NCBI GenBank assembly: GCA_016204255.1
Contig: JACQLA010000003.1
Span: 184,088 to 248,087 of the forward strand
From: Candidatus Microgenomates bacterium
GTDB lineage: Bacteria > Patescibacteriota > Microgenomatia > JACQLA01
Direction of reading: 5' to 3'
DNA: 64,000 nucleotides
The position numbers were made by a program, and so were the translations under genes. Below are positions 6,565 to 56,919 of this stretch, in pieces (within the stretch, counting starts at the first letter, position 1; every line of letters begins with the position of its first letter). The notes beneath the pieces are model-generated. The model was given only the letters and a program-made list of their open reading frames with translations, had not been told where the DNA came from and ran no database searches.

Positions 6565-7437
6565 ATGAAATTTGATGGTCGTGCTTTAGCTCAGAGAATT
6601 TTTCACAAATTGAGCGGAAAAATTAAGAATCTTGAAATTAAGCCACACTTGGTAGTAATTTTAGTGGGGGAGAACCCTGTCTGGGAGGCTTATGTCCGGC
6701 AAAAAAAGAAAAGAGGCGAAGAGATTGGAGCCAAAGTAACCATTGATCAGCAGAAAGAATTTATAACAACCCCAGAGTTAATTAAAGTTATCGAAAAACA
6801 CAACAACGATAGGGGAGTCCACGGAATTATTATTCAGCGCCCATTGCCGCCGCAAATTGACGGACAAGCCATTGCTCTGGCTGTTGCGCCCGCAAAAGAT
6901 GTCGATGGGTTTCATCCAGACTCGCCACACCCGATGCCAGTGGCTGATGCAGTCATGAAAATTCTTAAAGAAATCCAAGGTAATAATCAAGAATTTAATA
7001 AGTGGCTAAATTCTAAAAACATTGTCGTTATCGGCAAAGGGGAAACCGCGGGTGGACCGATTATTTCGGCTTTAGAAAAATTAGGAAACACACCAAAAGT
7101 AATAGACAGTCAAACTAAAAATCCCGAACTTTTGACCAAAAATGCCGATATTTTAATCAGCTGTGTGGGTAAAGAATCTGTTGTTACCCAAGAGATGCTT
7201 AAAAAAGGCCTGCCTGCCAATAGGCAGGGAGCTATTCTCATCGGTGTCGGCCTTCACAAAGATAACCAAGGAAAACTTGCCGGCGATTATGATGAAAATG
7301 AGATAAAAGATATCGCTGCCTTTTATACGCCTGTCCCCGGGGGTGTTGGCCCCGTTAATGTGGCCTGCCTTCTTGAAAATCTTGTCGGTGCCTGCCTCGC
7401 CGAGTCAAGGCGGGCCTGCCTCAAACAACAAAAATAA
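6565..7437 (+). CDS. folD: Bifunctional methylene-THF dehydrogenase / methenyl-THF cyclohydrolase
   Basis: FolD N-terminus (KFDGRALAQRI..., VVILVGENPVWEAYVRQKKK) and C-terminal TPVPGGVGPVNVACLLENL motif. 290 aa. Confidence 0.85.
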   Translation: MKFDGRALAQRIFHKLSGKIKNLEIKPHLVVILVGENPVWEAYVRQKKKRGEEIGAKVTIDQQKEFITTPELIKVIEKHNNDRGVHGIIIQRPLPPQIDGQAIALAVAPAKDVDGFHPDSPHPMPVADAVMKILKEIQGNNQEFNKWLNSKNIVVIGKGETAGGPIISALEKLGNTPKVIDSQTKNPELLTKNADILISCVGKESVVTQEMLKKGLPANRQGAILIGVGLHKDNQGKLAGDYDENEIKDIAAFYTPVPGGVGPVNVACLLENLVGACLAESRRACLKQQK

Positions 7438-7598: not shown

Positions 7599-8150
7599 AT
7601 GTCTATTAAACAGGAAAGATTTATTAATGGTTTTGAAAAACCGCGGGAGGAATTACTTTCTCCAGGAGAGTTAGAAATTTTAAAACTCATGGCGCGCGGA
7701 TTAAGTGAAGCGGAAATTCATAAGGAATCAGGGATTCCTATTCAGCTTTTAAGACACCTTCTTTACCGCGATCCCGCCCATTACAAAAGTCCAAATGTAA
7801 AACAAAAGGGAATTCTTCCAAAACTCGGGGCTCAAAGTCGTGAACAAGCTGTCTTGAAAGCGCTTGATTTGGGTTTTTTAGATCTTGGAGAAATAGAACG
7901 AAAGTCTGGCTTTAATCTGGAAAGATACGCAGAGTTAGACGATAAAGAAACACAATTATTGAATGTGCTTGATGATTCCTCTCATTCTGGACGAAATCAG
8001 ATTCTCGCTGAAAGATTAGGCGTGGTAAGAGATACCGTTAAAGATCAATTGAGCAGTATCTACAGAAAATTAGAAGTTTCAAATAAGATGCAAGTCGCCC
8101 TTTTTCATCGAATTGTCAAATCAAAACCACCACTTCAGTTGCCAAATTAA
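7599..8150 (+). CDS. LuxR/GerE-type transcription regulator with two tandem HTH_LuxR domains (paralogue 1 of 3)
   Basis: N-terminal LSPGELEILKLMARGLSEAEI and C-terminal ETQLLNVLDDSSHSGRNQILAERLGVVRDTVKDQLSSIYRKLEV each match the LuxR HTH pattern. No receiver or ligand domain. Confidence 0.6.
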   Translation: MSIKQERFINGFEKPREELLSPGELEILKLMARGLSEAEIHKESGIPIQLLRHLLYRDPAHYKSPNVKQKGILPKLGAQSREQAVLKALDLGFLDLGEIERKSGFNLERYAELDDKETQLLNVLDDSSHSGRNQILAERLGVVRDTVKDQLSSIYRKLEVSNKMQVALFHRIVKSKPPLQLPN

Positions 8151-8222
8151 TCAAAATGGCCTATAATTGAGCATCAATTAGACGAGCCGCGTAAGACGCG
8201 GCGAAGTATAATAGAAAACCTT

Positions 8223-8759
8223 ATGACCATAGAAAGATACATACCGACTACTGCAGTTGAAGGCGAACAAAGCAGCCTTTTAACCTCCCGACAAATCGAG
8301 ATCCTTAAATTAGTAACCTATGGTTTGACTTATAAGGAAATCGCTGCGAGACTATTAATTTCAGATCAGACCGTCAAAAACCATTTAACTCAACGTTCAG
8401 AATTTGGATCGATCCCTAAAGGAATCTTTGATCGACTTAATGTACAAACTAGAGAACAGGCTGTTTTAAAAGGACTCGAATTAGGTTATTTAGATTTAAA
8501 CGATATTGTCGAAAATTCCGGTTTACAACTCAACAAAATTGTGTTACTCACCCCCAGAGAAATTGATGTTATACACAAGCTTTCTGATCCCGAATGTGTA
8601 GGGAATAATAAAGTCACTGCTAAATCGCTAGGAATTTCTCCCGCCACATTGCATTATCATATGGAAAATATCTGCAAAAAATTAGAGGTCAAAAACCGAA
8701 TTCAGGCGATGGTTTTTCACCTGGCAGTTAAAAGAGAATTGGGGGTAGTAAATGAGTAG
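8223..8759 (+). CDS. LuxR/GerE-type double-HTH regulator (paralogue 2 of 3)
   Basis: SRQIEILKLVTYGLTYKEIAARLLISDQTVKNHL plus a second C-terminal HTH. Shares the TREQAVLKGLELGYLDL linker motif with its neighbours. Confidence 0.6.
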   Translation: MTIERYIPTTAVEGEQSSLLTSRQIEILKLVTYGLTYKEIAARLLISDQTVKNHLTQRSEFGSIPKGIFDRLNVQTREQAVLKGLELGYLDLNDIVENSGLQLNKIVLLTPREIDVIHKLSDPECVGNNKVTAKSLGISPATLHYHMENICKKLEVKNRIQAMVFHLAVKRELGVVNE

Positions 8760-9288
8760 AGAAAGAGTTATAGATTATCCCCGCCAGAGCGTGTTAAGCC
8801 CGCAGAAAAGAGAAATTCTTGAGCGTGTAGCCATTGGTCAAACCAATGCTGAAATCGCCAGGGCATTTGGTAATGCGCTCGCAACAGTTGTAAGTCATCT
8901 GCGCGGGGAAAATAACTCAATTCAGCATCGATTAGGAGCACGAAGGCAAGGCCAGGCAATCCTTAAGGCGTTTGAAATGGGGGAGCTGGATTTAATAACA
9001 ATAGTTGAAAAATGTAACTTTGACTTTGACCGCTATAAAAAACTGATGCCAAGAGAAATTCAAGTTTTAGACAAACTTACCAATCCTTCTCGTCGAATGG
9101 GAAACAAAGATATCGCAGATGTAATGCATATCGGCCGCGATGCCGTCCGACTTTCTTTATACAGCATCGGGAAAAAATTAGGAGTCAGTAAGAGGGAAGA
9201 GATGATAGTTTTTCATCTGGCGGCTACAACTTATCCTTTTGAAAAATCGGTAAGATACAATGGGGTAGTTGAAGAATCGGGTTTTTAG
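8752..9288 (+). CDS. LuxR/GerE-type double-HTH regulator (paralogue 3 of 3)
   Basis: Same architecture. Overlaps paralogue 2 by 8 nt (translational coupling). The stop abuts the convergent purD stop. Confidence 0.55.
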   Translation: MSRERVIDYPRQSVLSPQKREILERVAIGQTNAEIARAFGNALATVVSHLRGENNSIQHRLGARRQGQAILKAFEMGELDLITIVEKCNFDFDRYKKLMPREIQVLDKLTNPSRRMGNKDIADVMHIGRDAVRLSLYSIGKKLGVSKREEMIVFHLAATTYPFEKSVRYNGVVEESGF

Positions 9289-10620
9289 TTACCGGGATAC
9301 TCCTCGCTGGCCGATGTCGGTACGATAATGCATGGGGACGAAGAAAATTTTCCCTTCGGGAACCTCTCCCTTCCGCATTTCTACCGTGGTAGCAATAGAC
9401 CGATAAGCTCGATTGGCAGCGATTTTTGGAGTTGAGCCAAGACCGGCAACAAGGGCCACCCGTCCGCCTGAAGTTAGGATTTTTCCATCTTCATTTCTGG
9501 TTCCCGCTTGAAAAACGACAACATCTCTTTTTTTGGCAACTTCTTCAAGCCCAAAAATTTCTTTACCCGTTTCGTACTCTCCCGGATAACCGCTGGATGT
9601 TAAAACCACACCAACACAATACTCATTCGACCATCGTAAAGGAGTCTTATCTAATCTTCCATCAACCAAAGCATCAAAAGCTTGGATAAGGGGAGTTTGG
9701 AGTAGGGGCAAGGCTCCTTGAGTTTCCGGGTCCCCGCCGCGGCAGTTTATTTCCAAAACTTTGGGACCATCTTTTGTCATCATCAAACCGGCATAGATAA
9801 ATCCTTTGTAGGGGCCCGAGTTTGCTCCCGCTTTTTGAACAATTGGTCTTAGAATCTGTTCAGTCAAAGGCCTTAGATCTTCCGGACTAATCACTTCCCA
9901 GAAGGGAGCAACAACACCCATTCCGCCGGTATTTGGACCCCTATCACCATCAGAAACCTGTTTATAATCCTCCATGGGAATTAGCGGCTGGATTGTCTCT
10001 CCGTCGGTTAAAGCAATTAAGGAAACTTCCCTGCCTTCAAGTTTTTCTTCGATTACCACGCGGTCGCCGGCCGAACCAAATTCTCTGTCAACCATCAATC
10101 TTTTCAAGGAATTTTGAGCTTCTTCAAGGGTTTGGCAAACGAAAACACCTTTACCTCCGCATAAACCATCAGCTTTTATCACCACCCCATCCCGCTCCCA
10201 AGCGGCTAAAAAATCTCGAGCATTCTGATAAATACTAAAGGTAGCAAAATCCGGCCCGGGAATACCCCAGCTGGCTAAAGCGTGTCGGGCATCTGCTTTA
10301 CTTGTTTCAAGTCTTGCAGCTGATTGTGTAGGCCCGACAATTCTTTGACCTCTATCGTTAAATTCATTGACGATTCCTTTTGCCAAAGGTTCTTCCGGCC
10401 CGACCACTGTCAGATAAATATTATTTTCCCGTGCATAATCGGCTAACTTTCGCGGATCATCTATTCCAATCCCAGCGTTTGTGCCGCTTTGGGAAAGATC
10501 CGCATTGCCGGGTTCGGTGTAGTGGATTTTCACAGTTGGATCTTTTCCCAAAGACCAAGCATAAGCACTTTCCCGAGCGCCATTCCCAACTATCAAAATT
10601 TTTTTAAGAGTTTCCGGCAT
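9289..10620 (-). CDS. purD: Phosphoribosylamine--glycine ligase (GAR synthetase)
   Basis: 443-aa ATP-grasp protein. N-terminal KILIVGNGARESAYAWSL and the overall PurD layout. Last gene of the minus-strand pur operon. Confidence 0.85.
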   Translation of the reverse strand: MPETLKKILIVGNGARESAYAWSLGKDPTVKIHYTEPGNADLSQSGTNAGIGIDDPRKLADYARENNIYLTVVGPEEPLAKGIVNEFNDRGQRIVGPTQSAARLETSKADARHALASWGIPGPDFATFSIYQNARDFLAAWERDGVVIKADGLCGGKGVFVCQTLEEAQNSLKRLMVDREFGSAGDRVVIEEKLEGREVSLIALTDGETIQPLIPMEDYKQVSDGDRGPNTGGMGVVAPFWEVISPEDLRPLTEQILRPIVQKAGANSGPYKGFIYAGLMMTKDGPKVLEINCRGGDPETQGALPLLQTPLIQAFDALVDGRLDKTPLRWSNEYCVGVVLTSSGYPGEYETGKEIFGLEEVAKKRDVVVFQAGTRNEDGKILTSGGRVALVAGLGSTPKIAANRAYRSIATTVEMRKGEVPEGKIFFVPMHYRTDIGQRGVSR

Positions 10621-10626
10621 AAATTA

Positions 10627-11661
10627 TTATCCCAATTTCGCGGCTTCTTCGCGAACAATCCCACGGACTCGCCTGTGAACTTCGATTATAGGAGAAAGGT
10701 CTTCAACTCCTGCGATTAAATTATAATTCCCTCTATTGGAATCCGGTTCCCACCATGCGCCTCCTTCCTTTTGGGGCCTCATAGTACGATTTTCTTGTGA
10801 TGAGACAAATCTATGTACTTCTGTTAAACCGCCTTCCGAGTGTTTTATGCAAAGGGGTAGTAAATCACGGAAATCAGTGGTTGCCAAAGCCACGTTACCT
10901 TCATTTAAAGCGTATTCGTTGGCGTTAAAAGCAACCGCAGTTCCGCCTTCATTTCTTACCGCCCCCAGCATTACCATATCGGTAATACTGTCTCCAACAA
11001 CTACAATATCTCCCAAACCCACTTTATTTTCTTGGCATATAGCATGCAAAGCTTCCACTTTCCGATTCCCACCATTAACTCTGACTTCATTTAATGGTTC
11101 AAGCCCGCTTTCTGGTAAAATTTCCCAGAAAAATTCATCTAACATCTCCTTGATTTCTTTATCTTTTCCTTCAATCGGGTAAAGTTCCCGAAGCATTCTT
11201 GCCTGTGTTCGCCCAACAAAAGAGAGTAGAGTGGGACTAAATCTTTGACCCAGCTCGTCTAAAGCAAAACGAGTGCAGTGGACATGGCTTTCCTCAACGC
11301 CTACCCGCTGGGCGATATTAAGGGCATGTGGTCTATAACTTGTAGAGTTGATGTAAACCTCCCAATCACTACTTCTCAACCAAGTAATGGCCTCTGGAGC
11401 ACCATTAACTAACATTGCGGTGTCAGAAACGCTTTTTATATCCTTCTCTTTTATTCCGTTATAAATCAGGTAGGGAGCGATTAAGGCTAGAGTGTCGCCT
11501 GGTTCATAATTCTCCCTTCCTTCTAATGTTAAAAGATCGTCATAGCGTGAAATAGCTTCAAAAATTTTGCCCCCATCTGGAATAAGCTTCATGAGTTCAT
11601 AGGCATTATCTTGCGGTGAAAGAGGACCTTCTAAATCGAAAACACCAATCTTTCTTTTCAT
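10627..11661 (-). CDS. HAD-superfamily (phosphoserine-phosphatase-like, C1-capped) hydrolase of unknown role, embedded in the pur operon
   Basis: Motif I VFDLEGPL (DxE variant), a conserved Lys in GGNRKVEAL, and motif IV VVVGDSITDMVML. 344 aa with a roughly 70-aa C-terminal extension. 6-nt and 12-nt gaps to purD and purEC. Confidence 0.5.
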   Translation of the reverse strand: MKRKIGVFDLEGPLSPQDNAYELMKLIPDGGKIFEAISRYDDLLTLEGRENYEPGDTLALIAPYLIYNGIKEKDIKSVSDTAMLVNGAPEAITWLRSSDWEVYINSTSYRPHALNIAQRVGVEESHVHCTRFALDELGQRFSPTLLSFVGRTQARMLRELYPIEGKDKEIKEMLDEFFWEILPESGLEPLNEVRVNGGNRKVEALHAICQENKVGLGDIVVVGDSITDMVMLGAVRNEGGTAVAFNANEYALNEGNVALATTDFRDLLPLCIKHSEGGLTEVHRFVSSQENRTMRPQKEGGAWWEPDSNRGNYNLIAGVEDLSPIIEVHRRVRGIVREEAAKLG

Positions 11662-11673
11662 TTTATTTCCTTT

Positions 11674-13125
11674 CTAAGCAGTTTTATTAAAATAATCTAA
11701 AATTGATTGCTTTATAGCTGCGGGAGAGCTGTCAATTCTTGACAAATCCTGTCCGGTTAATCGCTGGTAGGGTTCGGTGTATAAAGCTGCCAGCTTCCCA
11801 GTGATTTCTTCGGGAACGTGCGGAATGCGGCCCTCGCCGGAAAACCCATGATCCACAAGCCAAAGTCGTAAAAATTCCTTATCCAGACTTTCCGGTTCCT
11901 CTCCGCGTTTTAGTTTTTCTTTATAACTTTCCAATCGCCAAAGTCTTGAAGAATCGGGAGTAAAAATTTCATCAATTAAAACCAGTTTGCCGTTTTTATC
12001 TTTTCCAAATTCAAATTTGGTGTCCACCAAAATCAGCCCGGCTTTTTTATAAATTCTGGCCGCTCTTTCAAATAAGGCTTGAGCAGCTTCTTCCATTTCC
12101 CGGTATGTCTTGCCAAAAAGTTTTGTGGCCTGGCTGGGCGAAATAATTTTGTCATGCTGACCCCCTTCGGCTTTGGTTGTCGGAGTAAAAACAAGTTTTG
12201 GCAGTTTTTGATTTTTTAAAAGTCCTTTGGGTAATTTTAGCCAATCATAAAGACCGGTTTTTTCGCTATAATTTTTCCATAAAGATGTCGAGGTTGAACC
12301 GGTAATATAGGCCCGGACAATCATTTCAATCGGGACCGATTTGCATTCTGTGCAAACTGTAACGTTGGGGTGGGGGATAGCAATCATGTGATTGGGAATA
12401 ATATCTTTAGTTTTTTCAAACCAGAATTTAGACAAAGTGTTTAAAAGGCGGCCTTTGCCGGGAGTTAAGCAAACGATGCGATCAAAAGCCGACTGCCGAT
12501 CGGTAGTAATCATCAATCGTTTGCCATCTTTCAAAACCCAATTATCCCGAACCTTACCCTGAATCTTCGGGCCGAAAGAACGGGGCAAATTAACTGTTTC
12601 CAAAGTTTGAAGAGTAGGGGAGTGATAGGAATTATTTTTTTCACTCAGGACGATATCCGCCTGAACAATTTTTTCGCGAAAACTTTTTTGATAATTTTCA
12701 AATTTTTCCGCAAGTTCCAAATTATCTAAAGCAAAAATTTTAACCGCCGCCAAAGCCGCCGTCTCCGGCTCTAAAACTACCGTAGCTGCAATCCCGGAAG
12801 GCATCCGCAACGAAGAAAAAATATCCGCCCCACCGTATTTTTCGCCATAAGGGGGACAGGAAATCACCGGATTTTTAGTCTGGGCGTCTATAAAACCGCC
12901 CAAAGCATTTGATCGCCCGGCCACAGCAATATAAATAATTTTTTTATTCTGACCATCATAATTTTTGATTAGTTCCAAAAGATGTGCGGGTGTTTTATGC
13001 GCCGAACCGATACGCAAAACAGATTCAACCGAGAATTTATCTAAAACTTGTTTTATTTTTTCAGCCTGCTCCTGATCGGTAGGGGAGCCCATCACAATTA
13101 CTACCAGTTCTTCTCGACTATTCAT
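11674..13125 (-). CDS. Fusion protein: N5-CAIR mutase / AIR carboxylase (PurE) N-terminal domain + SAICAR synthetase (PurC) C-terminal domain
   Basis: Residues 1-~160 match PurE (VVIVMGSPTD..., SAHKTP, GGADIFSSLRMPSGIAATVV). Residues ~190-483 match PurC (KVRDNWVL..ITTDRQSAFDRI, LVDTKFEFG). 4-nt overlap with purB. Confidence 0.8.
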   Translation of the reverse strand: MNSREELVVIVMGSPTDQEQAEKIKQVLDKFSVESVLRIGSAHKTPAHLLELIKNYDGQNKKIIYIAVAGRSNALGGFIDAQTKNPVISCPPYGEKYGGADIFSSLRMPSGIAATVVLEPETAALAAVKIFALDNLELAEKFENYQKSFREKIVQADIVLSEKNNSYHSPTLQTLETVNLPRSFGPKIQGKVRDNWVLKDGKRLMITTDRQSAFDRIVCLTPGKGRLLNTLSKFWFEKTKDIIPNHMIAIPHPNVTVCTECKSVPIEMIVRAYITGSTSTSLWKNYSEKTGLYDWLKLPKGLLKNQKLPKLVFTPTTKAEGGQHDKIISPSQATKLFGKTYREMEEAAQALFERAARIYKKAGLILVDTKFEFGKDKNGKLVLIDEIFTPDSSRLWRLESYKEKLKRGEEPESLDKEFLRLWLVDHGFSGEGRIPHVPEEITGKLAALYTEPYQRLTGQDLSRIDSSPAAIKQSILDYFNKTA

Positions 13126-14543
13126 AATTCCTCCTTTGCAGATTTTATTTCATTAATAGCATTTTCCGTGATTTTAACCGCCAAACCAATATAATTTTGG
13201 GGGGTCAGTTTTTGCAAAACTTTTTTATCGGCAGGGGAGACAGGTAAGCTCTTAATTAATTTCAACCATTCCGTCTTGCCGATATGGCGTCCGCGGGTTT
13301 TAGACAGGATTAAGGAATAGGGATCTTCGACACCTCGCCGACGCATCAAAGTCTGCGCCGCTTCGGAAAGAACTGTCCAGTCTTCATCTAAATCTTTACT
13401 AATCTTTCCGCTATTTGTTTTTAATCTTAAGAGACCATTTAATGTATTTTTGTAAGCTAAAAGAGACCATCCTAAAGGCACACCCATATCCCTCACGATT
13501 GTGCTGTCGGAAAGATCACGCTGAAGCCGTGAGGTCGCCAGCTCCCGGCAAAAATATTCGAGTAATGCGGTCGCTTTACCCAAATTACCCTCGCTATTTT
13601 CAAAACGCCAGGGATTTATTTTTTGCGGCATCGCCGAAGACCCAACCTCTCCTTTTTTATTTTCCTGAACAAACCAGTTGTCGCTCACATAACGCCAGAT
13701 GTCCTGATCAAAATCTATAAGTATCCCGTTAATTCGCTGATAATTTTGAAAAAAGGTAATCATATCCTCATAAGGATTAATTTGAGTTGTGACCAAATTT
13801 GGCTCAAAACCAAAAGAGCGGATAAATTTTTGAGCAAAGTTAATCCAATCGATTTCCGGATAGGTGATTTGCAAAGCATTTAAATTTCCCACCGCCCCGG
13901 TGAGTTTTCCAAAAAGCTGGCGGCCAGCCAAAGTTTTTACTTCCCTGTTTAATCGGCTGGCAAAAACCGCAAATTCCTTTCCCAGAGTTGTCGGCACCGC
14001 CCGCTGGCCGTGAGTCCGGGCCATCATAGGAGTATTTTTATCCCTTTCCGCCCGATTAATTAGTTCTTCGATTAGGCGATCCAAAGCGGGGATTAGAACC
14101 TGATCGGTTGCCCTTTTCAAAGCAAGCCGGTAAGCCAAATTATTAACATCTTCTGAGGTTAAACCGATATGAATTTTTTCAATCAGATCTTTCAGACTTC
14201 CTGTTAGCCGCAGCCGGAAGGATTTTTCCATAGCCTTAACGTCGTGATCGGTTTCAGTCTCGATCTTTTTGACTTTTTCTCCATCCTGAAGTGTCATACT
14301 TTGGCCGAAAGATTCAAGCTTTTGTCTTTCCGCCGCCGTCAACGGCCGAATAATTCCTTCATCTGATAGAGCAATCAAATATTTGGCTTCGACCTCAATT
14401 CTTAAGCGGATGAGATTGTATTCACAGACAAAAGGAGCAAGATCGACAACATCTTTTCGATTGCGGCCATCCAAAATGGAAATAGCAGTTAATTCCTGTA
14501 GAGGTAAAGTTTTTAAGTGAGTACCTTTGGTTTTTCCCGGCAT
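13122..14543 (-). CDS. purB: Adenylosuccinate lyase
   Basis: 473 aa with fumarate-lyase-family layout and the PurB-type N-terminus. First gene of the purB-purEC-HAD-purD operon, all tightly coupled. Confidence 0.8.
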   Translation of the reverse strand: MPGKTKGTHLKTLPLQELTAISILDGRNRKDVVDLAPFVCEYNLIRLRIEVEAKYLIALSDEGIIRPLTAAERQKLESFGQSMTLQDGEKVKKIETETDHDVKAMEKSFRLRLTGSLKDLIEKIHIGLTSEDVNNLAYRLALKRATDQVLIPALDRLIEELINRAERDKNTPMMARTHGQRAVPTTLGKEFAVFASRLNREVKTLAGRQLFGKLTGAVGNLNALQITYPEIDWINFAQKFIRSFGFEPNLVTTQINPYEDMITFFQNYQRINGILIDFDQDIWRYVSDNWFVQENKKGEVGSSAMPQKINPWRFENSEGNLGKATALLEYFCRELATSRLQRDLSDSTIVRDMGVPLGWSLLAYKNTLNGLLRLKTNSGKISKDLDEDWTVLSEAAQTLMRRRGVEDPYSLILSKTRGRHIGKTEWLKLIKSLPVSPADKKVLQKLTPQNYIGLAVKITENAINEIKSAKEEL

Positions 14544-14635
14544 AACTTGTTACGCGGATCTTGAGCTCTAAAATACTTTTTTACTTGGCAAAAGTCAAGT
14601 GAAAATTTACTTTACAATATGCTATAATTGGCTAG

Positions 14636-14902
14636 ATGGAAAAGAATACCTCTCAAACGACTGAAGTGGTTGTAAATGCTGATTTGGTTGTCGGCAGTAC
14701 GTATTCACAGTTCGTTGGCGTTACGGTAACAGACGTTGATATTACATTGGAATTTGTTTTTATAAGCCCACGAGAAAAAACAAAAGGACAAGTTGTTTCT
14801 AGAGTCACGTTACCACGTCCCTCGGGAGAAGATCTTGCTCGTACAATATTAAACACAATTAAATTACACGAAGAGAAGAAGAAAGGAAAAAAACATGAGT
14901 AA
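14636..14902 (+). CDS. Small conserved hypothetical protein (DUF3467-like pattern)
   Basis: 88 aa. The central YSQFVGVTVTDVDITLEFVFISPRE..VVSRVTLP segment resembles the DUF3467 family. It ends in a Lys-rich tail. Confidence 0.3.
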   Translation: MEKNTSQTTEVVVNADLVVGSTYSQFVGVTVTDVDITLEFVFISPREKTKGQVVSRVTLPRPSGEDLARTILNTIKLHEEKKKGKKHE

Positions 14903-15146
14903 TTCTTATACACTTCCAATTCCAAATACAAGTATTATAAGATCGACCTTTACGGAAGTAAATTATATGAAATTAATTAAAAATATTGTTTCAGAATTTA
15001 CAACCTTTGGGGCAGATAGTATTTTCAACGAATTAATTACAAATAAAACCTTTATTGCTGAGGCAAGGGAGGCGAGAAAACAAATTAAAAAACATCCCTC
15101 GAGCTTTACGAACTTTACTGAAAAATTCTCATCTCTAATTGATTAA
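14895..15146 (+). CDS. Small hypothetical protein, possible antitoxin partner of the downstream RelE-like gene
   Basis: 83 aa. Overlaps both neighbours (8 nt upstream, 1 nt downstream). No recognisable fold. Confidence 0.25.
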   Translation: MSNSYTLPIPNTSIIRSTFTEVNYMKLIKNIVSEFTTFGADSIFNELITNKTFIAEAREARKQIKKHPSSFTNFTEKFSSLID

Positions 15147-15455: not shown

Positions 15456-16637
15456 CTAAGTAATAATTTTGGGGAGCTGATTTGTTTTTATTGCCTCTTT
15501 GATTTCCATGGCGACGCGTTCGCCCATACTAACCGGTCTTCCATATAAATAGGAGCTATAGGGAGTGGCCGCGATTCCTGGGGAGCCCGGCATGCGCAGG
15601 GCCACGTCAAAAACCGCGATTTCTTTTTTGGGTGGACCGGGCAAGATAACCGCTTGCAAGCCAAAAGGGCCGATAATTCCCGGCCCAAACATCTCTTTTG
15701 TCGCCTCGACAAACCGTTCTCCCATCTCGTAAGCCATCTCTAAAAATGATTCCAAAACAGTCACAGCAATGTGACCCGCCTCCTCATAGGTCGGGCGGAT
15801 TTTGGCTAAAATTTGCGCCTGTTGTGTCTGAGGTAAACGCAAGAGTCCGTCTAAATTTGTTTGTCTTCTTGTGTCAGTTCCCAAAAGCTCTAAGCGGCCG
15901 AGAGTAGGGGAGTAGAAAAAGTTGAAATTGACCTGGGCACCAAGTAGAAATTCTTCAATAATTACATTTTTTAGCCCGCTTTCGGTAATTTTTCCGATTT
16001 TAATTAATTTTTCTGATTCGGTTAAAAATTCTTTATAGGAATTTGCCAGAAAAAAGGCCCGCTCAAATGATCGTTCTTTTTCATTAACGCTGACTTTAAC
16101 AATTACCATCCGATCAATATCTTTGGGATTTTTGAAAATCTTCGGATACTTAATCCCGCCTTTTTCCAAAAGATCATACTGGTTGGGTTTTACCGATCTT
16201 TCTTCGGCCCGAAACAAAAAGCGGTTGCCAAAGACAGGGATTTTAAATTTTTTTTCAATTCCGTCATAATCCCCGAGATAAACTTCAAAGGAGCGGTGGG
16301 GGATAAAGATGCAGTTTTTGGCCCGCAGTTTTTTTTGAACATCCGCAGTTAATAAATCTTTTATTTTTTCAACATAAAAAATTTCATCCACGCAACCGAC
16401 CGAAGGTCGTCCTGAGCTTGCCTGCGGTGAGGACATTCGGCTGAGCTCAGTCGAAGCCCTTGTCGAATCTGCCGAAGGACCTCTTTTAAAATATTGATCA
16501 TAAACTTTTCCCCGGCCTTTTTCCGCGATCACCAGCGTCTTAAACCCCATTTTTTTGGCGCCAAAACAAACTTCCAAGGCACTGTGCCGGGCAAAAACAG
16601 CAATAATGGGATTTTTATAATCTTTAACTGAGGTCAT
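15456..16637 (-). CDS. Archaeal-type FAICAR synthetase (formate-dependent, ATP-grasp) PurP, paralogue B with a low-complexity insertion
   Basis: PurP N-terminus (IAVFARHSALEVCFGAKKMGF) and conserved blocks (PHRSFEVYLG, NRFLFRAEER, GPFGLQ, MSMGERVAMEIK). A roughly 40-aa Ser/Pro-rich insertion lies near residue 55. Confidence 0.75.
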   Translation of the reverse strand: MTSVKDYKNPIIAVFARHSALEVCFGAKKMGFKTLVIAEKGRGKVYDQYFKRGPSADSTRASTELSRMSSPQASSGRPSVGCVDEIFYVEKIKDLLTADVQKKLRAKNCIFIPHRSFEVYLGDYDGIEKKFKIPVFGNRFLFRAEERSVKPNQYDLLEKGGIKYPKIFKNPKDIDRMVIVKVSVNEKERSFERAFFLANSYKEFLTESEKLIKIGKITESGLKNVIIEEFLLGAQVNFNFFYSPTLGRLELLGTDTRRQTNLDGLLRLPQTQQAQILAKIRPTYEEAGHIAVTVLESFLEMAYEMGERFVEATKEMFGPGIIGPFGLQAVILPGPPKKEIAVFDVALRMPGSPGIAATPYSSYLYGRPVSMGERVAMEIKEAIKTNQLPKIIT

Positions 16638-16810: not shown

Positions 16811-17815
16811 TTAATCCAAAACCAGATTTAATTTATTTTGGCCAATCGCGTTTTTTATCTCCCGGGCAATTCTTCGGCCGGTTGACATCGGCTCATCATA
16901 TAAAAATTGCGTGTAAGGCGATCCTTCGATAAAAAGATTAGTCCCCGCAACGATCCGACAGGAAATTTCAATTACAAAAAACTTTTGATCGGGAGTGATG
17001 ATCGTTTCCAAACAAAATGGGCCAAAGAGTCCTTTTTTCGGTATAATCTTTTGGGATGTTTTAACAACTTTCTCACCCATGGCAAAAGCTTCCGGTAAAA
17101 GCGATTCGCGCAGGGTCAAGGGACTGTTCCCCACAACAACGTATGATGGTTGAATGCCAAGACCTTCCTGGTTTTGGGAAGGGATACGGCCTAAGGAATC
17201 AACATTGGTTTCATACCGACGGTCAATGCTTAAAATTTCAAGTTTTCCAGTTAAGGGCGAGTAAAAGTAATGAATAAAAAGTGGTACCCCGATAATATAT
17301 TCCTGGATAACATAATCCCGAACGGTGAAATGGATAATTTTTTCGGCAAATTCCTTTTTATTGCGGGCAAAAAAGTAACCCCGGCCGCCGGCTGCGCCAT
17401 TGGATTTGACCATTACCGGTGCGTTAATTTGAGCAGGTAGATCAAATTGTCGCGGGATGTTTATACCCGCCTGCATTAACCAATCTCTTTGCCTTTTTCG
17501 ATCAGCTTCCCAATCTAAAACATCTTTGTTACCAAAATAAGAGGTTTTCATCTTTTTATTTTCATCCAAACCTAAATAAGCCACAAAAGAACCATGAGGA
17601 ATAATAATTACTCTTTTTTCCAGAAGTTTTTTTTCGATTTTGAAAAAATCTACATATTTTTTGATCGTTATCAATTCATCAATAAAGGGAAAGTTTTTAT
17701 AAAAAGATGAAAATTCCGGCGTGGTGATGGCAATTGTCGCAAAGCCCTCATCTTTGGCCCCCTTAAGAATTTGCAGACAGGAATGTGAGGCCAGGGTCGC
17801 AATTGTGTATTTCAT
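16811..17815 (-). CDS. purP: Archaeal-type FAICAR synthetase PurP, paralogue A
   Basis: 334 aa. Collinear with archaeal PurP throughout (TLASHSCLQILKGAKDEGF, IIPHGSFVAYLG, GGRGYF, FIHYFYSPL, GPFCLE, STGRRIAREIK). Confidence 0.8.
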   Translation of the reverse strand: MKYTIATLASHSCLQILKGAKDEGFATIAITTPEFSSFYKNFPFIDELITIKKYVDFFKIEKKLLEKRVIIIPHGSFVAYLGLDENKKMKTSYFGNKDVLDWEADRKRQRDWLMQAGINIPRQFDLPAQINAPVMVKSNGAAGGRGYFFARNKKEFAEKIIHFTVRDYVIQEYIIGVPLFIHYFYSPLTGKLEILSIDRRYETNVDSLGRIPSQNQEGLGIQPSYVVVGNSPLTLRESLLPEAFAMGEKVVKTSQKIIPKKGLFGPFCLETIITPDQKFFVIEISCRIVAGTNLFIEGSPYTQFLYDEPMSTGRRIAREIKNAIGQNKLNLVLD

Positions 17816-47240: not shown

Positions 47241-48135
47241 AAAAAGAGCAATTATTGCCTTAGTGATTGCTGCCCTGATCTGGGGCGCGGCTGTTCCAAT
47301 TTTTAAATGGTCGCTTGGCAATATTCCCCCATTTTCTTTAGCTTTTTTGCGATTTTTTCTGGCTGCCTTTTTAATTTTTCCCCTGGCCAAAAACCATCTT
47401 AAAATCTCTAGTAAAGATATCGATCGTATTGTGCTGATAAGTCTTTTAGGAATCACCTTAAATATTTCTTTTTTCTTCCAGGCACTAAGATATACCACCG
47501 CTTTAAACGCCGCCGTTCTTTTAACCACCGCCCCCATCCTTACCCTTTTTACCGCTCATATTTTTTTGAAAGAGAGGTTGAGACCAATTTTAATCCTGAG
47601 CTTATCTCTGGCAGTTTTAGGAATGATTGTTTTAATTATCAATCCCATTCGCGAAAACGGCATTGACTCCCATCTTCTGGGTAACTTCTTAATGCTTTTA
47701 GCAGTTTTATCCTGGGTGGGCTACGAAATTACCGCTAAAAAACTTTTCGTCTCGTATCCGGCCATTACCATCGTTTTTTATTCATTCTTAATTGGCGCTT
47801 TTTCTTTTTTCCCCGGATTTTACGCGGAGTACATCATGTCTCCCGAGTGGGTTTTAGATTTAGATATTAAGGGTATCGTCGGTATTGCCTATGGCGCATT
47901 TTTTTCCTCAACCATAGCTTATCTTGCCTGGGATTTCGGCCTTTCCAAACTGCCGGCATCAGAAGTTAGCCTCTTCAGCTCGTTACAACCCCTAGCTGCG
48001 GCAGTTATCGCCTTGCCCCTTCTTGGTGAGAAAATCACCTTTCCCTTTCTGATCGGTGCCTTTCTTATCCTGACCGGAGTCTTTTTGTTGGAGAAAAAAC
48101 GCCTCTTGACCCATTCTCGCCTTCAAAACAGTTGA
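47224..48135 (+). CDS. EamA/DMT-superfamily transporter
   Basis: Ten TM helices in two EamA repeats. 303 aa. Confidence 0.75.
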   Translation: MPSNSKKRAIIALVIAALIWGAAVPIFKWSLGNIPPFSLAFLRFFLAAFLIFPLAKNHLKISSKDIDRIVLISLLGITLNISFFFQALRYTTALNAAVLLTTAPILTLFTAHIFLKERLRPILILSLSLAVLGMIVLIINPIRENGIDSHLLGNFLMLLAVLSWVGYEITAKKLFVSYPAITIVFYSFLIGAFSFFPGFYAEYIMSPEWVLDLDIKGIVGIAYGAFFSSTIAYLAWDFGLSKLPASEVSLFSSLQPLAAAVIALPLLGEKITFPFLIGAFLILTGVFLLEKKRLLTHSRLQNS

Positions 48136-49349
48136 CTTCAGCAAGTCAGAAAAGTAAAATATCCTATAAAAATTGTGCGATGAGAAAAGAACAAGTTCTA
48201 GCATACAAACCAAATAAACGATTTAATCCTGTATTTCAGTCCGCAGAAGACCCAAGAGTTGCCTTTGTCGACAAAAATACGGGAGCATCATACAGAAGCG
48301 TACGAAAGGAATTGCTTACTAGAGAGCAGGAAATAGAAATTGCGCAAAATATTGAACGCGGTATTGTTGCCTACCACCTCCTAAGAAAACACGACCCGAT
48401 AAATATTAATCAATCAATAGAAGGAGTGATTCTGGATCGTGTAGCCGCAGAAAGTGAGGATACAAAAACTCCCGAATTTAGAAATAAAGTTGATGGGAAT
48501 CTTTCAGATCTGCGGAAAAATTTAGTCATCGAAGACCTTTTCCCAGAGATCAATGAGAATGAGCTTTCTGAAAAGGATTTAGAAGAATTAAAAAAAATGG
48601 TCGCTAGAGCTAAAGAATCCCGCGATCAGGCAGTCGAACATAATCATGGACTGGTTGTGGAAACCGCTAAATTTTATTATAGAAAAAAAGGTTCTTTAAC
48701 AATGGATGACCTCATCCAGATAGGTAAACTTGGATTTTTAAAAGGTCTGGCAAGATTTGATTGGCGCTCAGGCAATAAATTTTCAACCTACATTCCTCAC
48801 TGGGTAAAACATATGATTACTGAAGCAATAGGTAAAGATGGCTCAATAATTGCTCTGCCGAGTCATCGCATAGACTGGGAAAGGGTATATGAAAAGGCCT
48901 ACGATTTCCTTCTCGACAAAATGGGACAACCTCCTACTGATAGCGAAACTGCTCAATTTCTAGAGTGGCCACTCTCAAGAATCGAGTTAATAAAAAGCGC
49001 GCCAAAAGCGAATATTTCATTGGAGGCACCCAAATACGTAAAGGGCAAAGAACCGGTTGCAATTGGAAGCATGATCGAAGACCCAAACGACAACGATAAT
49101 CCTATATTATATGCGAATCATGCAGGTTTAGTTAGAGATTTAGAAATAGCTTTAAAATCTTTAAACCCAAGATGGAGAAAGATTTTAATGATGCGCAGTG
49201 GCATCGGCTACGATCACGAATATACTCTTGAAGAGGTTGGTAAAGAATTCGGTGTTACTCGCGAACGTATTCGTCAAATTGAAGCCCAAGCTCAGGAAAA
49301 AATATCCAAGAAATTTTCCCATTTACAGAATCATCTCTGGAACGATTAA
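48132..49349 (+). CDS. RpoD-like sigma-70 factor, paralogue 1 (alternative start ATG 48180)
   Basis: Region 2 (HNHGLVVETAKFYY..DLIQIGKLGFLKGLARFDWRSGNKFSTYIPHWVKHMI). Region 4 (YTLEEVGKEFGVTRERIRQIEAQA). Confidence 0.75.
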   Translation: MTSASQKSKISYKNCAMRKEQVLAYKPNKRFNPVFQSAEDPRVAFVDKNTGASYRSVRKELLTREQEIEIAQNIERGIVAYHLLRKHDPININQSIEGVILDRVAAESEDTKTPEFRNKVDGNLSDLRKNLVIEDLFPEINENELSEKDLEELKKMVARAKESRDQAVEHNHGLVVETAKFYYRKKGSLTMDDLIQIGKLGFLKGLARFDWRSGNKFSTYIPHWVKHMITEAIGKDGSIIALPSHRIDWERVYEKAYDFLLDKMGQPPTDSETAQFLEWPLSRIELIKSAPKANISLEAPKYVKGKEPVAIGSMIEDPNDNDNPILYANHAGLVRDLEIALKSLNPRWRKILMMRSGIGYDHEYTLEEVGKEFGVTRERIRQIEAQAQEKISKKFSHLQNHLWND

Positions 49350-55971: not shown

Positions 55972-56919
55972 TCAAACTGGATTTCCTTTGGCAAGAGGTA
56001 CGTTCCCAACCGGAGAGCTGGCGTGATTTTCGTTTTGAAATGAGACTATATCTCCATCCTGGATTAGATAATCATCTTCAACCTTTTGTACCTTCCCTAC
56101 CTCTTTTGCTTTCTGCCAGTTTCCTAAGCTTAAAATTTCTGCGGTTCCAATTACCTCGACTTGGGGAAAATTTTGATTTGAATCAGCTTGTGTTTCCTTG
56201 ATCGCTTCTAAAATGGTCTTTCCCTCTTTAATTGACCACGCATGAAGCACTCCCCGATTAAGAGTGTAAAAAATGATAAGGTTTAGAAGTTTAAAACAGT
56301 GATCAATAATCGTATTTATATTGCCATCTTCATTTTCTCCATTTTTTACACAGGAAAAAATTACCTTATCTATCTTCATTTCAAACTGAAGTTTTTGCCG
56401 TAATTTCTCAATTGTAACTTTGTCATTTGCAACTGTTTTATCGATATTTATCAAATACAGAGTCGGTTTTTTAATGCCCGCCAGCCGTAACTCTTCTTTG
56501 ACAACTTCAATATCTCTAGTTGGGTTTATAGACCCCATAACATGAGGAACGCTTTTAGTGGCATATTCGGAGGTCATGTGAAGCCTGACATGATCAAAAA
56601 ACCGCACAACATGCAAAATAGCATCGGCTTCTCGAATATGGGCCAAAAAATCATTACCCAACCCTTGTCCATGATGAGAGCCTTTAACTAAACCGGCGAT
56701 GTCAAGAAATTGTATTGTCGCGGGGAAGATCTTTTCGGCTCCGAGCATCGAGGCCAGATTTTTAACCCGCTCATCCGGAACCTCAATCACCCCGGTATGG
56801 GAATCGGTAGTGGTGAATGGATAATCAGCGACTTTGGAGAATTGACGTTTAAGAAGCAGGTTAAATAATGTTGATCTTCCCGTATTTGGCAAACCCACAA
56901 TTCCGATTTTTAAAGACAT
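55972..56919 (-). CDS. Divergent YchF/Obg-family GTPase paralogue with Walker-A Lys to Arg (GLPNTGRST)
   Basis: Collinear with YchF ([11 protein letters not shown], a TGS-like C-terminus) but with GxxxxGRS in place of GKS. Shortened central region. 315 aa. Confidence 0.65.
   Translation of the reverse strand: MSLKIGIVGLPNTGRSTLFNLLLKRQFSKVADYPFTTTDSHTGVIEVPDERVKNLASMLGAEKIFPATIQFLDIAGLVKGSHHGQGLGNDFLAHIREADAILHVVRFFDHVRLHMTSEYATKSVPHVMGSINPTRDIEVVKEELRLAGIKKPTLYLINIDKTVANDKVTIEKLRQKLQFEMKIDKVIFSCVKNGENEDGNINTIIDHCFKLLNLIIFYTLNRGVLHAWSIKEGKTILEAIKETQADSNQNFPQVEVIGTAEILSLGNWQKAKEVGKVQKVEDDYLIQDGDIVSFQNENHASSPVGNVPLAKGNPV

What the first reader, a model, noticed from the sequence alone, without database searches (positions are those of the whole stretch)
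10627..11661. HAD-superfamily hydrolase of unknown role translationally coupled inside the purB-purEC-purD operon
The 344-aa protein carries HAD motifs I (VFDLEGPL, an unusual D-x-E variant) and IV (GDSITD) plus a C1 cap and a 70-aa C-terminal extension. It is separated from its pur neighbours by only 6 and 12 nt. No HAD enzyme belongs to the canonical purine pathway, so this position suggests an undescribed pathway-associated activity. It could be a phosphatase acting on a pathway intermediate, or a replacement for a missing step such as IMP cyclohydrolase, given that PurP is used without obvious PurO. This is speculation.
Basis: inference. Interest (0 to 1): 0.65.

Follow-up and report, generated by a model that had tools for sequence, protein, structure and literature searches.

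The report
Uncharacterised HAD enzyme tied to purine synthesis
This gene encodes a phosphate-transfer enzyme of a widespread family with no known function (mislabelled a hydrogenase subunit) that repeatedly sits beside the enzymes that make and formylate the purine intermediate GAR, which points to an undescribed helper step in a textbook pathway.

Summary
A 344-aa HAD-fold protein lies at 10627-11661 (-), 12 nt after purE-purC and 6 nt before purD, with all four HAD motifs and Glu at D+2.

It belongs to the EhaR/AF1437 family. This is a HAD-IB offshoot that databases label "energy-converting hydrogenase A subunit R". I found no described function for it.

The D-x-E motif is a family hallmark (118 of 127 diverse members). 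It is shared with ThrH, a phosphoserine:homoserine phosphotransferase.

The pur linkage is not unique to this genome. Distant relatives (35-50% identity) sit in pur operons on at least five separate branches. They recur next to PurD and next to, or fused with, four kinds of GAR formyltransferase: a PurN-like protein, a PurN-PurD fusion, PurT, and PurT-like proteins. A ribokinase-like PfkB or a P-loop kinase usually accompanies them.

The IMP-cyclohydrolase idea is not supported. The phosphoryl-transfer residues are intact, and relatives share operons with full-length PurH.

Best reading: a phosphatase or phosphotransferase acting on a phosphoribosyl compound at the GAR stage. The substrate is unknown. 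The gene-context pattern seems undescribed.

The parts
10627..11661 (-). EhaR/AF1437-family HAD-IB gene (344 aa). It is 100% identical to MBI4100353.1, a hypothetical protein of a Candidatus Microgenomates bacterium.
11623..11640 (-). HAD motif I, F8-D9-L10-E11-G12-P13. D9 is the predicted nucleophile. E11 sits at D+2, where most HADs have Asp.
   Evidence: D in 115/127 and E in 118/127 diverse family members; the same DLEG motif occurs in ThrH
11365..11622 (-). C1-type helical cap (residues 14-99). It carries the family-invariant polar residues D18, S38, Y40, D41, Y52, G55 and T57.
   Evidence: hhalign to the ThrH cap
11335..11349 (-). HAD motif II region, N105-S-T-S-Y109
11074..11268 (-). 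Second helical insertion (residues about 132-196), between strand 3 and motif III
   Evidence: secondary structure of the model
11059..11073 (-). HAD motif III region, G197-G-N-R-K201
10978..10995 (-). HAD motif IV, G223-D-S-I-T-D228
   Evidence: reverse complement reads GGAGACAGTATTACCGAT
10630..10851 (-). C-terminal extension (residues 271-344). It has two helices, a variable low-confidence loop (294-306), a strand and a long terminal helix with invariant R333 and R337, and it ends in KLG.
11662..11673 (-). 12-nt spacer between purE-purC and the HAD gene, with an AGGA ribosome-binding core (11668-11671)
   Evidence: read directly
11674..13125 (-). purE-purC fusion gene (AIRC + SAICAR_synt), immediately upstream
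13122..14543 (-). purB, first gene of the apparent operon
9289..10620 (-). purD (GAR synthetase), 6 nt downstream of the HAD gene
15456..16637 (-). PurP paralog a. Its loop lacks the GG motif, so it looks like the cluster-II type (by eye).
   Evidence: PMC3261824
16811..17815 (-). PurP paralog b. It has an AGGRG loop, so it looks like the cluster-I type (by eye).

Best explanation
The gene encodes a Mg2+-dependent phosphoryl-transfer enzyme (phosphatase or phosphotransferase) of the EhaR/AF1437 branch of the HAD-IB subfamily. It is co-transcribed with purB, purE-purC and purD.

It is an accessory enzyme of the early, GAR-level part of de novo purine synthesis (steps 2-3: PurD and GAR formyltransferase). 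The predicted mechanism is the usual HAD one. Asp9 takes the phosphate of a phosphomonoester as an aspartyl-phosphate. Glu11 acts as the acid/base, as in ThrH. The phosphate then passes to water or to an acceptor hydroxyl.

The most likely substrate class is a 5-phosphoribosyl compound, such as GAR/FGAR or a closely related ribose phosphate. In most relatives the enzyme works as a pair with a riboside/ribose kinase (PfkB type, or a P-loop AAA_28 type). The pair forms a dephosphorylate/rephosphorylate couple around GAR formylation.

Shown here: the fold, the conserved catalytic residues, family membership, the operon position and the recurrent gene partners. Inferred: catalysis itself, the substrate, and the purpose of the kinase/phosphatase couple.
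For: Enzyme class:
- All four HAD motifs are conserved in 127 diverse family members.
- The AF2 model (pLDDT 89.9) matches AF1437 (PDB 1Y8A) with TM 0.82/0.90. The next matches are SerB and ThrH.
- Motif I, 'DLEG', is identical to that of ThrH, which I recall as a phosphoserine:homoserine phosphotransferase (PDB labels 1RKU 'homoserine kinase'). hhalign gives probability 92.5% and E 4.7e-7.

Purine linkage on separate branches of the family tree:
- Window: purB, purEC, X, purD.
- L062 (Parcubacteria): purB..X-purC.
- Syntrophonatronum-type clusters: PfkB, formyltransferase, X, LysE, guaA, purE, purB, purS/Q/L, purF, purM, purH, purD.
- L097: purN, purF, purD, X (4-nt overlap with purD), formyltransferase, P-loop kinase, purL, purQ, guaA, PurP, PurP, purE, purC.
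- L102: purL, purQ, formyltransferase, X, kinase, purM.
- L105: a PurN-PurD fusion, then X, PfkB, purL, purQ, purM.

Link to GAR formylation through four different enzyme types:
- A PurN-like 'c1' protein lies within three genes (directly adjacent in most) in 109 of 117 loci of the main, largely Dehalococcoidia, cluster, and also in Thermoplasmata and Firmicutes-type loci.
- A canonical PurN fused to PurD.
- A PurT-like gene directly after X-PfkB in L099, with PDB PurT E 1.9e-18.
- Natural fusions of a PurT-like ATP-grasp domain to an AF1437-like HAD (P0417 and P0422).
- In L089 and L092 there is no purN between purM and purH, so c1 is the only GAR formyltransferase candidate in the operon.

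Kinase partner: the PfkB scores best against ribokinase and ribose-1-phosphate kinases. In the L097 and L100-L102 lineages it is replaced by an unrelated P-loop kinase.

Overall, 9 of 30 sequence clusters (60% identity) have pur genes in the locus.
Against: - No activity was measured and no substrate can be named.
- In the window itself no formyltransferase or PfkB partner lies within 64 kb.
- In one CPR lineage the gene follows pyrF-pyrE, not pur genes. In one Thermoplasmata locus the pair is followed by rpiA. Both fit a general ribose-phosphate/PRPP role at least as well as a GAR-specific one.
- Two invariant arginines (R333, R337) would suit a second anionic group, which GAR and FGAR lack.
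- Hydrolysing a pathway intermediate only to rephosphorylate it looks wasteful.
- The largest group (Dehalococcoidia, 117 loci) shows no core pur genes other than the formyltransferase nearby.
- Some neighbour labels rest on my own BLAST against a home-made reference set.
- Gene clusters may have moved between lineages as units, which would inflate the count of independent associations.
Confidence: 0.45

Rival explanations
1. Ribose-phosphate supply or salvage enzyme. With the PfkB kinase it would process ribose phosphates to feed ribose 5-phosphate/PRPP into nucleotide synthesis. Candidate substrates are ribose 1-phosphate, ribose 1,5-bisphosphate and PRPP breakdown products. It would act either as a ribose-bisphosphate phosphatase or as a HAD-type pentose phosphomutase whose bisphosphate cofactor the kinase makes.
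For: - The PfkB partner scores best against ribokinase (118 bits) and against ATP- and ADP-dependent ribose-1-phosphate kinases (about 109 bits).
- rpiA is translationally coupled after X-PfkB in L023.
- X directly follows pyrF-pyrE in L081-L083, and PRPP is common to both nucleotide pathways.
- A PHP phosphoesterase precedes the cluster in Dehalococcoidia.
- The invariant R333 and R337 could bind a second phosphate.
- The HldE/GmhB kinase-HAD pair in heptose synthesis is a precedent (from my own knowledge).
Against: - It does not explain the specific, repeated pairing and fusion with four kinds of GAR formyltransferase and with PurD, rather than with Prs, PurF or nucleoside phosphorylases.
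- The replacement kinase in the L097/L100-L102 lineages is of the AAA_28 (NadR-like) type. From my own knowledge its relatives phosphorylate ribosides, not free sugar phosphates.
- The cap is rich in invariant acidic residues.
Confidence: 0.25
2. Phosphoserine phosphatase or ThrH-like enzyme. It would supply serine, and hence the glycine used by PurD and the one-carbon units used by the formyltransferase.
For: - The nearest characterised relatives in fold and sequence are SerB and ThrH.
- Invariant D18 lies 9 residues after the nucleophile, as does E20 of M. jannaschii phosphoserine phosphatase, which binds the substrate amino group (spacing read from the sequences; the role of E20 is from my own knowledge).
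- FolD lies 3 kb away in the window.
- Steps 2 and 3 are exactly the steps that consume serine-derived glycine and C1 units.
Against: - SerB scores 38 bits against a cut-off of 144, and ThrH 26 bits against 133.
- The cap is much larger, with a 14-residue conserved insertion and a second cap module.
- No serA, serC or glyA gene was seen in any annotated neighbourhood.
- It does not explain the conserved ribokinase-like partner or the fusion to PurT-like domains.
- If methanogen EhaR belongs to this family (not tested here), methanogens would carry it alongside a bona fide SerB (my own knowledge).
Confidence: 0.1
3. Purine 5'-nucleotidase (for example for IMP or GMP). Together with a nucleoside kinase it would buffer nucleotide pools or enable export or cross-feeding of nucleosides.
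For: - HAD enzymes are the commonest nucleotidases (my own knowledge).
- The partner kinases belong to families that include nucleoside/riboside kinases.
- A LysE-type exporter follows the gene in Firmicutes-type clusters, and guaA is next to that.
- The cap is rich in acidic and aromatic residues, which would suit a neutral nucleoside leaving group.
Against: - The association is with early-pathway enzymes (PurD, GAR formyltransferases), not with end-product enzymes.
- The fusion to PurT-like domains is unexplained.
- The invariant arginines are unexplained.
Confidence: 0.1
4. Replacement for the missing IMP cyclohydrolase.
For: The window has two PurP paralogs, and no PurO or PurH was seen among the window ORFs scanned with Pfam. 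IMP cyclohydrolase is truly unidentified in some PurP-using archaea (PMC3261824).
Against: - The intact phosphoryl-transfer motifs are conserved family-wide. There is no reason to keep them for a cyclohydrolase.
- Relatives share an operon with full-length PurH.
- Archaeoglobus, which has the AF1437 paralog, has PurJ (PMC6486802).
- The partners are step 2-3 enzymes.
- The published suspect for this step is the cluster-II PurP paralog.
Confidence: 0.02
5. Subunit of an energy-converting hydrogenase, as the database label says.
For: JGI labels many homologs 'energy-converting hydrogenase A subunit R'. In Methanothermobacter, ehaR-T are cotranscribed with the eha hydrogenase genes (PMC3087415).
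Against: - None of the window ORFs scanned with Pfam is a hydrogenase gene, and none of the roughly 15 non-methanogen neighbourhoods that carried Pfam annotations shows hydrogenase genes.
- The protein is a soluble HAD enzyme.
- The family is common in Dehalococcoidia, CPR and Firmicutes-type loci, where it sits in pur or formyltransferase/kinase clusters.
Confidence: 0.01

Closest known systems
AF1437 of Archaeoglobus fulgidus (PDB 1Y8A; structural-genomics 'hypothetical protein')
   Same: It has the same overall architecture: HAD core, large cap and C-terminal extension. Foldseek gives TM 0.82/0.90 and phmmer E 2.8e-26. Its motif I is D-W-E-G-P.
   Different: Identity is only about 26-32%. 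AF1437 belongs to a small subfamily (184 hits) in which every named member is from the Archaeoglobi. It has uninformative neighbours and no known function.
EhaR, 'energy-converting hydrogenase A subunit R' (KEGG/JGI label), of Methanothermobacter and other methanogens
   Same: Automated annotation gives this label to many full-length homologs of the window protein at 42-51% identity. In Methanothermobacter, EhaR is followed by EhaS and EhaT, which were once annotated as formyltransferase and ribokinase (PMC3087415). That is the same trio of activities found around the bacterial homologs.
   Different: Here there is no hydrogenase context at all. I could not fetch a methanogen locus, so I did not test whether EhaS is the PurN-like 'c1' type.
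ThrH of Pseudomonas aeruginosa (PDB 1RKU), a HAD-IB phosphoserine phosphatase / phosphoserine:homoserine phosphotransferase
   Same: It has an identical D-L-E-G motif I, a similar 'xYDxL' cap motif, similar motif II and a similar 'GDSxxDxxML' motif IV. hhalign gives probability 92.5%.
   Different: ThrH is 205 aa long. It lacks the 14-residue cap insertion, the second cap module and the C-terminal extension. The NCBIfam ThrH score is 26 bits against a cut-off of 133. Its gene context is different.
Phosphoserine phosphatase SerB (for example M. jannaschii MJ1594, PDB 1F5S)
   Same: It is the next-best structural neighbour after AF1437 (Foldseek E about 1e-6 to 1e-7). It shares the core fold and motifs II-IV.
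   Different: SerB has D-x-D in motif I. Its cap cannot be aligned by sequence. The TIGR00338 score is 38 bits against 144.
HldE/HldA kinase plus GmhB HAD phosphatase of heptose biosynthesis (from my own knowledge, as an analogy only)
   Same: A PfkB-family sugar kinase and a HAD phosphatase are encoded together and act in sequence on one sugar phosphate.
   Different: There is no sequence relationship beyond superfamily level. The pathway differs, and no formyltransferase is involved.

Membership tests
HAD superfamily (phosphoryl-transfer type) | Motif I with a nucleophilic Asp at the end of strand 1 | tested here: met
   D9 in 'VFDLEGP'; Asp in 115/127 diverse family members
HAD superfamily (phosphoryl-transfer type) | Asp at D+2 as the general acid/base (canonical DxD) | tested here: not met
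   Glu11 is present instead, and Glu occurs in 118/127 members. The same substitution occurs in the active enzyme ThrH, so this is a variant and not a loss of function.
HAD superfamily (phosphoryl-transfer type) | Motif II Ser/Thr, motif III Lys and motif IV acidic pair | tested here: met
   S106/T107, K201 and D224/D228, at 84-99% conservation
HAD superfamily (phosphoryl-transfer type) | Rossmann-like core fold with an inserted cap | tested here: met
   AF2 model with pLDDT 89.9. Foldseek top hits are all HAD enzymes.
EhaR/AF1437 family | Full-length homology, including the C-terminal extension and the family-invariant residues (DxEGP, D18, Y40-D41, Y52..G55-x-T57, FNxN, R333, R337, C-terminal LG) | tested here: met
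   2567 homologs, the best at 98-100% coverage. 296 clusters at 50% identity reach E<=1e-30. Invariants are listed.
EhaR/AF1437 family | Encoded in an eha hydrogenase operon (the origin of the name) | tested here: not met
   The neighbours are purB, purE-purC and purD. No hydrogenase gene was seen among the window ORFs scanned.
Phosphoserine phosphatase SerB | Score above the curated equivalog cut-off (TIGR00338, 144 bits) | tested here: not met
   38.1 bits
Phosphoserine phosphatase SerB | Hydrolysis of O-phospho-L-serine | not testable with these tools
   Needs an enzyme assay or serB complementation.
ThrH (phosphoserine phosphatase/homoserine phosphotransferase) | Score above the curated cut-off (NF010109, 133 bits) | tested here: not met
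   25.7 bits. Only motif I, part of the cap and motif II align.
IMP cyclohydrolase (PurO or the PurH2/PurJ domain) | Sequence or fold similarity to PurO or to the MGS-like PurH2 domain | tested here: not met
   No such Pfam or NCBIfam hit at E<=1. The structural neighbours are all HADs.
IMP cyclohydrolase (PurO or the PurH2/PurJ domain) | Presence only where known cyclohydrolases are absent (functional replacement) | tested here: not met
   Homologs share operons with full-length PurH in L089 and L092.
Proposed formyltransferase + HAD + kinase module | A GAR-formyltransferase-type gene and a riboside/ribose kinase gene adjacent to the HAD gene | tested here: not met
   In the window there is no c1 or PfkB homolog at blastp E<=1e-3 within 64 kb. 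The rest of the genome could not be examined. purD adjacency, which is seen in L097 and L105, is met.

The most novel reading that the evidence does not exclude
EhaR-family HAD enzymes, a riboside kinase and a GAR formyltransferase form a previously unrecognised three-enzyme module at step 3 of purine biosynthesis. The module would be widespread in anaerobic archaea and bacteria. The kinase is PfkB or, by non-orthologous displacement, a P-loop kinase. The formyltransferase is PurN-like or PurT-like.

The HAD and the kinase could make formylation effectively irreversible through an ATP-paid dephosphorylation/rephosphorylation of FGAR. Alternatively they could route the step through riboside-level intermediates.

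On this reading the methanogen 'hydrogenase subunits' EhaR/S/T are really purine enzymes. The module would also account for the GAR formyltransferase that Brown et al. (2011) could not find in Methanobacteriales and Methanopyrus, and a divergent PurT-like protein working with an AF1437-type HAD (as in the P0417/P0422 fusions) might account for it in the Archaeoglobi.
Probability: 0.25. Interest if true: 0.85.

Novelty: new variant of a known kind. Interest (0 to 1): 0.6.

Why it matters
De novo purine synthesis is one of the best-studied pathways, yet two steps still lack identified enzymes in many archaea: GAR formylation and IMP cyclisation (PMC3261824).

This gene belongs to a compact, well-conserved family of about 300 clusters at 50% identity. 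The family has no known function, and its database name sends annotators to hydrogenases.

In several phyla of bacteria and archaea the family travels with PurD, with four different kinds of GAR formyltransferase and with a riboside-type kinase. That turns an anonymous 'HAD hydrolase' into a concrete, testable candidate for an accessory reaction at steps 2-3.

It also suggests what the unexplained EhaR/S/T genes of methanogens do. It corrects a systematic misannotation in Dehalococcoidia, CPR and other metagenome-derived genomes. If the function turns out to be ordinary, for example pentose-phosphate salvage or a nucleotidase, the annotation gain remains but the biochemical interest falls.

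Tried and rejected
- Literature searches for AF1437, EhaR, EhaS/EhaT, 'eha operon' plus formyltransferase, K14109, glycinamide riboside and GAR formyltransferase in Methanothermobacter found no functional description of the family. Only PMC3087415 mentions the old EhaS/EhaT annotations.
- The neighbourhood of AF1437 itself in A. fulgidus is uninformative. So are the neighbourhoods of the PurT-like-HAD fusion proteins.
- A metagenome scan with the single protein P0440 found nothing. The repeat with an alignment worked.
- Cluster look-ups returned no organism names.
- The hydrogenase-subunit reading is rejected on context. The IMP-cyclohydrolase reading is rejected on conserved chemistry and co-occurrence with PurH.
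- The promoter and terminator scan of 9000-15000 gave nothing above chance.
- No homolog closer than 51% (52% in my own alignment) exists among 5.8 billion proteins. Conservation of the exact purEC-X-purD order in close relatives therefore could not be tested.
- Model coordinates are not returned by the tools. I could not check whether R333 and R337 face the active site.
Full report
**Observation.** The ORF at 10627-11661 (minus strand, ATG start, 344 aa) is real.
- It lies 12 nt after the stop of a purE-purC fusion gene. The spacer reads AAAGGAAATAAA and has an AGGA core 6 nt before the ATG.
- It ends 6 nt before the ATG of purD. purB overlaps purE-purC by 4 nt.
- Pfam confirms all neighbours. 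It also finds two PurP paralogs (15456-16637 and 16811-17815) and FolD (6565-7437).
- A promoter and terminator scan gives nothing above chance, and the gaps are too short to hold signals. The four genes therefore look like one transcription unit. This is an inference.

**What the protein is.**
- Pfam gives only borderline HAD hits (Hydrolase 29.3 bits, HAD 28.2 bits).
- NCBIfam places it nearest the HAD-IB group but far below every curated cut-off: SerB 38 against 144, HAD-SF-IB 38 against 45, ThrH 26 against 133.
- The only solved relative by sequence is AF1437 of Archaeoglobus fulgidus (PDB 1Y8A, E 2.8e-26).
- An AlphaFold2 model built on 25 homologs is confident (pLDDT 89.9). It matches 1Y8A with TM 0.82/0.90. 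The next matches are phosphoserine phosphatases and ThrH, at TM about 0.5.
- The model shows a HAD core, a helical C1 cap (residues 14-99), a second helical insertion (about 132-196) and a C-terminal extension of about 75 residues.

**The family.**
- The window protein is identical to a hypothetical protein of a Candidatus Microgenomates bacterium. Its next-closest relative among 5.8 billion proteins is only 51% identical.
- There are 2567 homologs. Many carry the JGI label 'energy-converting hydrogenase A subunit R'.
- A profile search of 1.84 billion representatives finds 296 clusters at E<=1e-30 and 918 at E<=1e-3.
- Across 127 diverse members the following are at least 90% conserved: D9, E11, G12, D18, A20, S38, Y40, D41, Y52, G55, T57, L58, P63, Y109, T130, G197, G198, K201, G223, D224, S225, I226, D228, G240, N246, N248, R333, R337 and L343.
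- So the 'unusual' D-x-E is the family rule.
- It is also the motif of ThrH (PDB 1RKU, 'CLDLEGVLVPE'), which I recall as a HAD-IB phosphoserine phosphatase and phosphoserine:homoserine phosphotransferase. The family profile aligns to ThrH through motif I, part of the cap and motif II with 92.5% probability.
- The chemistry is therefore almost certainly aspartyl-phosphate phosphoryl transfer, possibly biased towards transfer rather than hydrolysis. This is an inference.

**Gene neighbourhoods: main, largely Dehalococcoidia cluster and archaea.**
- I collected 174 loci carrying a family member.
- I annotated neighbours with Pfam or NCBIfam where possible. Otherwise I used BLAST against a reference set built from those annotations.
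- In 117 loci of the main cluster the order is a PHP phosphoesterase, a PurN-like formyltransferase ('c1'), the HAD, and a PfkB kinase. Named members of this cluster are mostly Dehalococcoidia.
- c1 is about 275 aa. It scores 52 bits against Formyl_trans_N and 61 bits against the PurN model, and it has the N-x-H-P and LD.GP catalytic signatures.
- The PfkB kinase scores best against ribokinase and ribose-1-phosphate kinases.
- The same HAD-PfkB pair occurs in Thermoplasmata, with c1 divergent and once followed by rpiA, and in Altiarchaeia.

**Gene neighbourhoods: pur operons.** The HAD gene is written X below.
- L062 (Parcubacteria): purB, two small ORFs, X, purC.
- Candidatus Syntrophonatronum and related contigs: 2-oxoacid:ferredoxin oxidoreductase genes, PfkB, c1, X, LysE, guaA, purE, purB, purS, purQ, purL, purF, purM, purH, purD. 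No purN lies between purM and purH.
- L097: purN, purF, purD, X (4-nt overlap with purD), c1-type formyltransferase, AAA_28 P-loop kinase, purL, purQ, guaA, PurP, PurP, purE, purC.
- L100-L102: purL, purQ, c1, X, P-loop kinase, purM.
- L105: a PurN-PurD fusion, X, PfkB, purL, purQ, purM, and then PurP, purA, PurP.
- L099: X, PfkB, and a PurT-like ATP-grasp protein (PDB PurT E 1.9e-18).
- L098: a bona fide PurT lies two genes from X-PfkB.
- Two natural fusion proteins (961 and 899 aa) join a divergent PurT-like ATP-grasp domain to an AF1437-like HAD domain.
- One CPR lineage instead has pyrF, pyrE, X.
- On a neighbour-joining tree the pur-linked members fall on at least five separate branches.
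- Of 30 sequence clusters at 60% identity, 9 have pur genes in the locus. About 14 have a GAR-formyltransferase-type gene within three genes, and about 17 have a kinase within three genes.

**Interpretation.**
- The association is with a reaction, not with a protein family. Four different GAR-formyltransferase forms, plus PurD, recur beside the HAD or fused to it. The kinase can be swapped between two unrelated folds.
- This ties the HAD and the kinase to the GAR/FGAR stage of the pathway.
- The most economical reading is a phosphatase or phosphotransferase acting on a phosphoribosyl compound, coupled to a riboside/ribose kinase.
- What the couple achieves is not established. It could be a thermodynamic pull on formylation, a riboside-level bypass, salvage or overflow of early intermediates, or pentose-phosphate supply.
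- The pyrF-pyrE and rpiA contexts and the two invariant arginines keep a ribose-phosphate/PRPP role alive as the main rival.
- A phosphoserine-phosphatase-like role, supplying serine-derived glycine and C1 units, and a purine nucleotidase role are weaker rivals.

The general claim of an undescribed, pathway-associated HAD activity is supported. The IMP-cyclohydrolase substitution is not, for these reasons:
- The phosphoryl-transfer residues are conserved.
- Homologs share operons with full-length PurH.
- Archaeoglobus has PurJ (PMC6486802).
- The literature already points to the second PurP paralog for that gap (PMC3261824).

**Relation to what is known.**
- In Methanothermobacter, EhaR, EhaS and EhaT are cotranscribed with the Eha hydrogenase. 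EhaS and EhaT were once annotated as a formyltransferase and a ribokinase (PMC3087415). This is the same trio of activities.
- Brown et al. could not find a GAR formyltransferase in Methanobacteriales, Archaeoglobi or Methanopyrus (PMC3261824).
- The module described here could fill that gap, but I could not fetch a methanogen locus to test whether EhaS is the c1 type.
- I found no paper describing a function for this family or this gene-context pattern.

**Verdict.** The protein is a member of a known but functionally uncharacterised family. Its recurrent linkage to steps 2-3 of purine synthesis appears undescribed and can be tested directly. Confidence in the general role is moderate (about 0.45). 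Confidence in any specific substrate is low.

Noticed in passing
window 15456-16637 (-) and 16811-17815 (-); also L097 16618-18765 and L105 17757-20872: A Candidatus Microgenomates (CPR) bacterium carries two PurP (formate-dependent AICAR formyltransferase) paralogs. One has an AGGRG loop (cluster-I-like) and one lacks it (cluster-II-like). PMC6486802 states that PurP occurs only in archaeal genomes. The same two-PurP arrangement appears on two unclassified metagenome contigs that also carry the HAD gene. Paralog a has an insertion of about 35 residues of low complexity in its DUF1246 domain.
   Followed up: partly
window 11674-13125 (-): PurE and PurC are fused in the order PurE (N-terminal) then PurC (C-terminal). 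No PurK was seen among the window ORFs scanned with Pfam.
   Followed up: no
L105 8116-10029 (+): A 637-aa fusion of a canonical PurN (GKGSNL, INLHPG, FDFGPV) to PurD, directly followed by the HAD gene and a PfkB kinase.
   Followed up: partly
P0417 (961 aa) and P0422 (899 aa); L095 1200-4085: Natural fusion proteins join a very divergent PurT-like ATP-grasp domain (about 590 aa; PurT model 35 bits) to an AF1437-like HAD domain (motif DWEGPW). Their neighbours are restriction-modification and OLD-family genes, which are uninformative.
   Followed up: partly
L084, L085, L086, L114 (genes upstream of PfkB): In the Syntrophonatronum-type clusters a four-subunit 2-oxoacid:ferredoxin oxidoreductase lies 12 nt upstream of PfkB-formyltransferase-HAD, in the same orientation. 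In methanogens the corresponding genes follow a ferredoxin-reducing hydrogenase. This recurring ferredoxin link is unexplained.
   Followed up: no
L097 5374-5988 (+): The 204-aa 'PurN' at the head of this pur operon appears to lack the N-terminal GAR phosphate-binding loop as called. The same operon also carries a c1-type formyltransferase. This may be a mis-called start or a truncated protein.
   Followed up: no
window 7599-9288 (+): Three tandem small proteins (183, 178 and 178 aa) lie between folD and purD. In the second and third, Pfam finds two LuxR/GerE-type helix-turn-helix stretches; the first has one significant GerE stretch plus a weak N-terminal HTH hit. The last one abuts the purD stop codon, and the two genes converge.
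   Followed up: partly
window 48132-49349 (+) and 49435-50601 (+); 55972-56919 (-) and 60828-61973 (-): Two tandem sigma-70-family genes and two YchF-type GTPase paralogs occur within 15 kb.
   Followed up: no
L081 6124-9041 (+): In a relative of the Parcubacteria homolog (70% identity) the HAD gene directly follows pyrF and a divergent pyrE. Pfam finds nothing in that pyrE, but it matches PDB orotate phosphoribosyltransferase at E 1e-13. So the family is not exclusively purine-linked.
   Followed up: yes
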